From NCBI GenBank assembly GCA_012026655.1, contig JAAILG010000629.1, positions 1-64,000 of the forward strand: DNA of 64,000 nt, in the 5' to 3' direction. The notes beneath the pieces are model-generated. The model was not told the origin of the DNA, searched no databases, and was given only the letters and a program-made list of their open reading frames with translations. Position 1 is the stretch's first letter. Every line of letters begins with the position of its first letter. The position numbers were made by a program, and so were the translations under genes. Positions 6,276 through 7,377 of this stretch are shown piece by piece. The stretch comes from Hydrolagus affinis (taxonomy: Eukaryota).

Positions 6276-7142
6276 CTGAATAGAAAGGAAGCAAATGAAA
6301 CAAGGTCATATACAGTATTGGTCTTAACAAGACACGAATATCTCCATAACAGAAGTATAAAAAATGTTTGGAAATTTAGAGCATGGATAGTGACAGGGGG
6401 AAAGAAAGTAAGTGGGACAGACACTTGTTCATTTTAATTTTTTTTTAGGAATAACACTTTAGAAAAAAAATTGTTGAAAATTGCAGTTTAGGGTCTTAAT
6501 TGATGCTATGTCAAATAAGACAGAAGACTACAATTTTTCACTACTTCTGAGGCTCAGTAAGCTTGACCCAAGTTAGGTATCAGACTGTCAGTACATTTGC
6601 AGATCAGTTTATATTGAAGAGTTAGCATTTCATAGAATTAAATATTGTAGTCCAACTAGACATTCAGTCCAACTAGACCATGCCTGTGTTCAGACTCCAC
6701 GTCAAGTATTTAGATGTATGAGCATTCTAATGCCATCTCCCTAAAGTTACCTGAACATATTAGAGGTAGAAAGGCCAGAGGAACGTTAAAAAGGATAGAC
6801 GACAACGCAAGAGGATAGGGAAGGAAAGCAACAAGGACAAAAAGTGATACAAATCATGCATTGAATAAGATTTTAAAATGAGTCGTGTTTGCTTTAAAGG
6901 CATGTTTTGCATTTTTTTTTAGCAGATTATGGTAATTCTTCATATTTTGAGTATAAAATGATGTAAGATTATATAATATTAGATTTTTAAAGTTACAATG
7001 CCTGAAGTGAAAATAAGAAGAATGAACTGGTCCCCAGATAGAAGTTTTAGGTTTAGCTAGTCCAGGTGGACCAGGGTTAATAAAGTGGTTGCTACCAGTT
7101 AGGAAGACTTCAGATCTGAACATTCAGTATCAAGGTACTTTC

Positions 7143-7377
7143 CAGAAGAATGCTCTCCCAAGACATCCAGCGAATAGGAAGCACGGCTCGGCCCTGGATC
7201 CGATAATAGTCTCCACTGTACAAGTTGCGGCTCATGCCAAAGTCAGCGATCTTGATTGTGTAATTCTTACCCACCAGGCAGTTCCGCGTGGCAAGGTCAC
7301 GGTGAACAAAGTTGAGAGAGGACAAGTACTTCATGCCAGATGCTATCTGCTTTGCCATCAGGATGAGATTGGCGTAG
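7143..7377 (-). CDS. DDR2: DDR2 coding exon 14 ([18 protein letters not shown]...HRDLATRN...DFG...[10 protein letters not shown]); ends at a non-canonical GA donor
   Basis: tgtcag| acceptor; lies in ORF 7110..7400; homology ends at ILL, followed by GAAAGT instead of GTAAGT. Confidence 0.93.

What the first reader, a model, noticed from the sequence alone, without database searches (positions are those of the whole stretch)
7110..7150. Non-canonical GA-AG intron in the DDR2 kinase domain
Seen: exon 14 ends ...GAG AGC ATT CTT CTG and continues GAAAGTAC (7142-7135). The next exon starts in phase 0 with GGC AAG TTT (GKF), so the conserved ...ESILL|GKFTT junction needs splicing at CTG|GA. Positions -1, +1 and +3 to +7 match the U1 consensus; only the near-invariant +2 T is A. 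The alternatives are damaging: the GT at +5 frameshifts, the next in-phase GT (AAT|GTTCAG) inserts ESTLILN between kinase subdomains VIII and IX, and read-through stops after [10 protein letters not shown], giving a kinase-dead receptor. The rest of the gene is intact. Knowledge: GA donors are extremely rare in vertebrates; a juxtamembrane GA donor in FGFR1-3 is the classic case. Inference: this is a functional GA-AG intron that may throttle active-receptor output, a splice-null allele, or a base-calling error.
Basis: partly seen in the sequence, partly recalled or inferred. Interest (0 to 1): 0.75.

Follow-up and report, generated by a model that had tools for sequence, protein, structure and literature searches.

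The report
GA-AG intron in chimaera DDR2 kinase
An intron in the kinase part of a chimaera's collagen-receptor gene DDR2 starts with GA instead of the almost universal GT; the odd base is real, a related species shares it and cuts the intron out at exactly that spot, likely less completely than the neighbouring introns.

Summary
Confirmed: the GA donor is real and spliced. Coding intron 14 of this holocephalan DDR2 (867 nt, minus strand 7142-6276) is GA-AG. The other 14 introns are GT-AG and the gene reads as an intact 864-aa receptor. The GA also stands in a second DNA run (contig with 0 differences) and in a relative, organism B (1.7% diverged intron). Stranded RNA reads of B join 7143 to 6275: 4 junction reads plus 3 clipped reads; no cryptic joint reached the listing threshold. 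So a base-calling error and a splice-null allele are both very unlikely. All 136 read-through homologue proteins and the genome's DDR paralogue have GT here, so the GA is likely derived. U1 is normal (7 of 7 readable copies), no GT lies 6 nt upstream as in FGFR, and this is the only donor of 15 matching U1 at all of +3..+7. The intron keeps about 26% of exon depth while flanking introns show none; that rests on few reads and is only suggestive. Verdict: a new, obligatory member of the rare known GA-AG U2 class. The scan noted one GA donor earlier, in a euglenid gene.

The parts
6276..7142 (-). DDR2 coding intron 14, GA-AG, 867 nt, phase 0, 34% GC
   Evidence: joint skipping 867 nt in RNA of organism B
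7135..7145 (-). Non-canonical 5' splice site CTG|GAAAGTAC; 8 of 11 U1 pairs; the only one of 15 donors with 5 of 5 at +3..+7
   Evidence: same bases in X1 and X4 contigs
6276..6300 (-). Ordinary U2-type polypyrimidine tract and AG acceptor; no U12 branch motif
7143..7377 (-). Coding exon 14: catalytic loop, DFG and activation loop, ending ESILL
   Evidence: tblastn 97.5% to Callorhinchus DDR2; spliced to exon 13 in RNA
6126..6275 (-). Coding exon 15 (GKFTT...), kinase C-lobe
   Evidence: match to DDR2 kinase structure 6fer, E 2.5e-26; spliced to exon 16 in RNA
7110..7112 (-). In-frame stop (TGA) met if the intron is retained, 984 nt upstream of the last exon junction
7114..7124 (-). Weak in-frame cryptic GT (+22) that would insert ESTLILN; not seen used
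   Evidence: no such joint listed (threshold 3 reads)
6912..6920 (-). A9 tract in the intron (possible oligo-dT internal priming site; a second lies at 6438-6446)
4124..24610 (-). DDR2 coding region, 16 coding exons, 864 aa

Best explanation
DDR2 intron 14 begins with GA, and a relative with the same GA splices it out exactly there; it is likely an ordinary major-spliceosome intron whose ancestral GT mutated to GA and is likely tolerated because the rest of the donor pairs unusually well with normal U1 and U6. Shown: the GA is genomic in three data sets; the exact in-frame junction is made in organism B; U1 is canonical; +3..+7 match U1 fully. Inferred: the ancestral site was GTAAGTA and changed T>A in a chimaera lineage; normal U1 binds with one A-A mismatch at +2 and hands over to U6 through the intact +4..+6 (pairing rules recalled); the window's own species splices like B. 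Because every alternative destroys the kinase C-lobe, the site is obligatory, not an alternative donor. Removal is probably slower or incomplete (roughly a quarter of exon depth stays in the intron), and retained messages would hit a premature stop and likely be degraded or held in the nucleus. The incomplete removal is most likely a tolerated cost rather than a selected switch.
For:: X1 contig 6985-7319 has 0 differences. X4 (organism B) contig 6602-7450, depth 52.6, lists no change at the donor although the intron has 15 substitutions and 2 indels. X21 stranded RNA has a joint skipping 867 nt (4 reads, 3 starts), and GA..AG is the only one of its three placements with an AG end; 3 further clipped reads carry the start of exon 15. 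The direct repeat is only 2 nt and GC is 34%, against template switching. 136 of 136 read-through homologue proteins begin with V (GTN), none with E or D, and the paralogue L002 has CTG|GTGAGT. U1 is canonical in 7 of 7 readable copies. Only this donor of 15 has 5 of 5 at +3..+7. The downstream C-lobe is 93 of 98 residues identical to Callorhinchus.
Against: RNA evidence comes from organism B, not the window's own species, and from 83 reads in 27% of one run; mates are counted separately. X1 has depth 3.4 and could be the same animal as the window. One of the 11 differences in the X4 contig is not listed by position (the tool omits changes near contig ends). The donor state in Callorhinchus and sharks is unknown: X13 did not cover the exon and no read-through protein was recognisably chondrichthyan DDR2, so the age of the change is unbounded above. 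U1/U6 compensation was not tested. The retention estimate is confounded by the silent removal of human-like (exonic) reads, two A9 tracts, and only about 75 nt sampled per flanking intron.
Confidence: 0.85

Rival explanations
1. The GA donor is a selected regulatory brake (detained or retained intron) that sets how much active DDR2, or how much truncated kinase-dead receptor, a cell makes.
For: Intron depth 3.4 against exon depth 13.2 (26%). At the flanking introns, 0 unspliced against 13 spliced clipped reads; at the GA donor, about 3-5 unspliced against 7 spliced; Fisher p 0.015-0.07. All intronic reads have the RNA's strand. Depth of about 3 persists downstream of both A9 tracts. The GA is kept in two lineages.
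Against: Tiny, non-independent counts from one library. Filtering and internal priming both inflate the intron share. Persistence over 1.7% divergence is expected of any single base (about 98% chance) and does not show selection for GA. No cell-type or condition dependence was tested.
Confidence: 0.25
2. A splice-null or strongly hypomorphic allele: DDR2 is effectively broken in this lineage.
For: +2 T is near-invariant: 30 GA-AG among 157,385 annotated Callorhinchus introns (PMC7072748 supplement). All alternatives are damaging. Some unspliced RNA is seen.
Against: Correct junction reads at least match unspliced reads in B. The open 864-aa frame has no decay. The two exon differences between the window and B are one synonymous change and H814R, R being the Callorhinchus residue. 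No second DDR2 copy was found in G000.
Confidence: 0.04
3. Base-calling or assembly error, or a private heterozygous variant.
For: Fragmented assembly (245,464 contigs); contigs drop rare variants.
Against: Same base in X1 and in the clearly distinct organism B; the only T>A change counted in X4 and X21 is at 6358, not 7141.
Confidence: 0.02
4. The site needs a special helper: a variant U1, a neighbouring canonical GT as in FGFR, RNA editing, or the U12 spliceosome.
For: Such routes are described or proposed for other GA or non-canonical sites (PMC4176328, PMC7072748). 2 of 9 U1 copies have no readable 5' end, and multicopy U1 may be collapsed in the assembly. A possible second GT>GA site lies at exon 8.
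Against: 7 of 7 readable U1 5' ends are canonical. No GT at -6; the nearest GTs are weak (duplex -1.7 to -3.0 against -5.8 kcal/mol). A-to-I editing would give GG, and no T>C row at 7141 appears in RNA. No U12 donor or branch motif.
Confidence: 0.1

Closest known systems
GA-AG U2-type introns of human FGFR1-3 (Twigg 1998, Brackenridge 2003, as cited in PMC4176328; originals not held)
   Same: GA donor with AG acceptor, U2-like, in a receptor tyrosine kinase gene
   Different: The FGFR GA is an alternative donor that depends on a GT 6 nt upstream and is conserved across paralogues. Here no such GT exists, the site is obligatory, it lies inside the catalytic domain, and the paralogue and homologues have GT.
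Other human GA-AG U2-like introns: ITPR1, MYO18B, CAGE1, TEX101 (PMC4176328 supplement 3; ITPR1 also in the TOGA2 preprint)
   Same: One mismatch at +2 in an otherwise U2-like site, used in mature mRNA
   Different: Different genes; DDR2 occurs 0 times in the 2 supplement files with hits (one file not searchable). I did not check which of these sites are constitutive.
Primate-specific AT-AG site of ACTR10 (PMC4176328)
   Same: Lineage-restricted non-canonical donor derived from an ancestral GT
   Different: That change is at +1 (AT); this one is at +2 (GA).
Genome-wide GA-AG introns of Eurytemora affinis and Oikopleura dioica (PMC7072748)
   Same: GA donor followed by A at +3
   Different: There GA-AG outnumbers GC-AG, the exon ends in conserved AG and a U1 variant is proposed. 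Here the exon ends CTG, U1 is canonical, and the holocephalan Callorhinchus has only 30 of 157,385 GA-AG.

Membership tests
U2-type GA-AG intron | Genomic GA at +1,+2 and AG at the 3' end, not an error or private variant | tested here: met
   (X1, X4)
U2-type GA-AG intron | RNA spliced exactly at these ends | tested here: met
   organism B: 4 joint reads plus 3 clipped reads; not tested in the window's own species
U2-type GA-AG intron | U1-like donor context and polypyrimidine tract | tested here: met
   8 of 11 U1 pairs, 5 of 5 at +3..+7; acceptor
U2-type GA-AG intron | Not a reverse-transcriptase template switch (long direct repeat, high GC) | tested here: met
   2-nt repeat, 34% GC, junction restores the conserved frame
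U2-type GA-AG intron | Lariat with G+1 at the branch; dependence on U1/U2/U6 | not testable with these tools
   needs lariat sequencing or snRNA blocking
FGFR-type dependent GA donor | Canonical GT 6 nt upstream used as alternative donor | tested here: not met
   nearest GTs at -22, +5 and +22, all weak and damaging
U12-type intron | RTATCCTT donor and CCTTAAC branch motif (motifs recalled) | tested here: not met
Eurytemora/Oikopleura-type genome-wide GA donors | Variant U1 5' end | tested here: not met
   7 of 7 readable copies canonical; 2 of 9 unreadable
Eurytemora/Oikopleura-type genome-wide GA donors | Percent-level GA-AG frequency in the genome | not testable with these tools
Editing-rescued non-canonical site | RNA base differs from DNA at the dinucleotide | tested here: inconclusive
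   no row at 7141 in X21 with about 4-5 unspliced reads and a 3-read threshold; A-to-I could not give U
Detained or regulated retained intron | Retained above flanking introns in polyA RNA and regulated | tested here: inconclusive
   26% against 0, p 0.015-0.07, confounded; regulation untested

The most novel reading that the evidence does not exclude
Chimaeras fixed a GT>GA change at an obligatory intron inside the DDR2 kinase domain and use it, with no helper GT and normal U1, as a rate-limiting intron that meters active collagen receptor against a truncated kinase-dead form. A second GT>GA candidate at exon 8 of the same gene would then point to a lineage whose spliceosome is relaxed at +2, a natural vertebrate test of why +2 U is nearly invariant.
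Probability: 0.2. Interest if true: 0.8.

Novelty: new member of a known kind. Interest (0 to 1): 0.58.

Why it matters
+2T>A changes are treated as null in clinical and comparative annotation. Here a vertebrate lineage carries one at a junction its kinase cannot do without, and a relative splices it correctly. It is a clean natural substrate for asking which flanking bases let the major spliceosome do without +2 U, free of the neighbouring-GT crutch of FGFR. Practically, annotation pipelines would likely call this gene broken or insert seven residues. If retention proves regulated, it would also be a dosage control on a collagen receptor in a cartilaginous fish (DDR2's role in skeletal growth is recalled, not tested).

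Tried and rejected
No RNA holder of the stretch was listed by the run index; RNA evidence came only from laying an added raw-read run. X13 (organism D) laid only other kinase and repeat contigs, so it says nothing about the donor. Protein searches for a chondrichthyan read-through or a chimaera transcript product found none (top 120 of 1390, top 120 of 405, and 3 of 10 candidates); the window's read-through protein is not in the collection. All 19 further cluster members, 18 of them named chondrichthyan models, read ESILL|GKF, which does not reveal their donor. A variant U1 was sought and not found. Folding the donor region gave mixed accessibility (0.4-0.9 unpaired), uninformative. My first exon-8 boundary was wrong and broke the frame (the exon-8 row, identities and codon calls there are void, corrected). 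Literature: no paper holds DDR2 + non-canonical + GA-AG, chimaera + Holocephali + non-canonical + splice site, or DDR2 + intron retention + kinase-dead + splice variant. Searches gave nothing closer than the papers cited. Brackenridge 2003 is not held. Passages of PMC13326754, PMC1934990 and PMC11958768 added nothing on GA donors.

Full report
Observation. On the minus strand coding exon 14 of a DDR2 gene ends ...ATT CTT CTG at 7143 and is followed by GAAAGTAC; + strand 7141 is T. The next exon starts GGC AAG TTT at 6275 behind a normal pyrimidine tract and AG. The intron is 867 nt, phase 0. Mapping with database proteins gives 16 coding exons and an open 864-aa frame; 14 of 15 introns are GT-AG and only this one is GA-AG. 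The protein is 97.5% (before the intron) and 94.9% (after) identical to Callorhinchus DDR2 and 85-92% to shark and skate DDR2, so the animal is a chimaera-like holocephalan (inference). The genome holds one copy of this exon and one DDR paralogue at 86%.

The alternatives are damaging. The +5 GT, the -22 GT and exon skipping all frameshift. The +22 GT inserts seven residues. Retention stops at residue 775, 984 nt before the last junction, and loses the 99-residue C-terminal part that matches the solved DDR2 kinase C-lobe.

Is the base real? I laid 4 of the 24 listed runs on 6050-7450. X1 has a contig over 6985-7319 with 0 differences (depth 3.4) and another over 6171-6877 with 0 differences; it may be the same species, and I cannot exclude the same animal. 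X4, organism B, is clearly distinct: 15 substitutions and 2 indels in the intron (1.7%) and 2 substitutions in 385 exonic bases. Its contig over 6602-7450 (depth 52.6) lists no change at 7135-7143. 10 of its 11 differences are listed by place, and the only T>A counted in the run is at 6358. X13 did not cover the gene. A base-calling error is therefore very unlikely.

Is it spliced? X21 is stranded polyA single-cell RNA of organism B; 27% of the run was read and 83 reads were laid, all in one orientation. It shows one joint, skipping 867 nt, in 4 reads from 3 starts, with 2 letters of ambiguity. The three placements give AA..GG, GA..AG or GG..CA, and only GA..AG has a normal acceptor and a U1-like donor. 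Three more reads are clipped at 7142 and their loose letters equal the start of exon 15. No cryptic joint reached the 3-read threshold. The repeat at the ends is 2 nt and the intron is 34% GC, unlike the template-switch artefacts described in PMC4176328 (Discussion), and the joint restores the conserved ESILL|GKF.

Ancestral state. Of 233 proteins from two searches (top 120 of 1390 and top 120 of 405), 136 are genomic read-throughs of this exon, and all continue with V, that is GTN; none continues with E or D. 94 are spliced GKF models, 1 is not a DDR, 1 skips the exon and 1 ends there. These rows mix DDR2 and paralogues, mostly lack taxonomy, and none is recognisably chondrichthyan DDR2. The genome's own paralogue has CTG|GTGAGT at the same position. 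So GT is ancestral for the family. When GA arose is unknown beyond predating the split between the window's lineage and B.

Mechanism. All 7 readable U1 5' ends are canonical; 2 of 9 substantial hits have no readable 5' end, and a pattern open at the base facing +2 found only those 7. Against that U1 the site pairs at 8 of 11 positions and is the only one of the gene's 15 donors with 5 of 5 at +3..+7 (others 0-4). The FGFR mechanism needs a GT 6 nt upstream (PMC4176328 passages; original paper not held), and there is none. U12 motifs (recalled) are absent. A-to-I editing cannot make U, and no RNA-DNA difference is listed at 7141. The best reading is a strong ancestral GTAAGTA donor that lost +2 T and is still read by normal U1 and U6 through its other bases. 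This step is inferred, not tested.

Efficiency. In X21 mean depth is 3.4 over the intron against 13.2 over the exons (26%). The roughly 75 nt sampled of each flanking intron have depth 0, with 8 and 5 spliced clipped reads. Fisher tests on 0 of 13 against 3-5 unspliced of 10-12 give p 0.015-0.07, but mates are not independent. Human-like exonic reads are silently removed, and two A9 tracts could prime inside the intron; the depth peaks lie upstream of them, though depth of about 3 also persists downstream of both. Incomplete removal is likely; regulation is not shown.

Comparison with what is known. GA-AG U2-like introns are a known rare class: FGFR1-3, ITPR1, MYO18B, CAGE1 and others (PMC4176328: abstract, Results part 1, Discussion, supplement rows 1-32 of 62 hits; TOGA2 preprint passages). 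24% of that paper's 184 non-canonical sites are constitutive. Callorhinchus has 30 annotated GA-AG among 157,385 introns (PMC7072748 passages and supplement rows; column counted by hand), so holocephalans are not known to be GA-rich like Oikopleura. Whether DDR2 is among those 30 could not be seen. Searches found no paper on this site; the library lacks most subscription journals, bioRxiv supplements are closed, and one supplement file of PMC4176328 could not be searched.

Verdict. A real, spliced, obligatory GA-AG intron inside a receptor kinase domain: a new member of a known rare class that differs from the FGFR type in having no helper GT. Interest 0.58. The bolder case, a regulated brake on DDR2 in a lineage relaxed at +2, is not excluded (probability 0.2); the untested exon-8 GA candidate is its best lead.

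Noticed in passing
window 13609-13628, minus strand (end of coding exon 8): Callorhinchus RefSeq and most shark and ray models splice at a position that in the window reads ATG|GACAGTTA (GA at 13625-13624, 5 of 11 U1 pairs). A strong in-frame GT lies 9 nt downstream (adds GQL; used in one Heptranchias model). Possibly a second GT>GA change in the same gene, either silenced and rescued or used as a tandem GA/GT pair. Relatives' DNA not seen, no reads laid.
   Followed up: partly
window 24608-24625, minus strand: The first ATG of the Callorhinchus model (MSFLTMH) is ACA in the window; the frame likely starts five codons later at 24610, leaving the signal peptide intact.
   Followed up: partly
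window 12199-12209, minus strand: Donor of coding exon 9 (AAG|GTTTCCTA) has 0 of 5 U1 matches at +3..+7, the weakest of the gene, and resembles a U12-type donor (motif recalled); not examined.
   Followed up: no
window 6130: His814 in the window is Arg in organism B and Callorhinchus: a lineage-specific change at the end of exon 15.
   Followed up: partly
window 27291-28857, minus strand: Broken reverse-transcriptase-like ORFs of a LINE-type element (family assignment recalled, not scanned); short fragments of similar elements recur through the window.
   Followed up: no
L002 (G000:C51712): GC-rich DDR-family paralogue (86% aa, 78% nt over this exon) with canonical donor at the same intron position.
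   Followed up: yes
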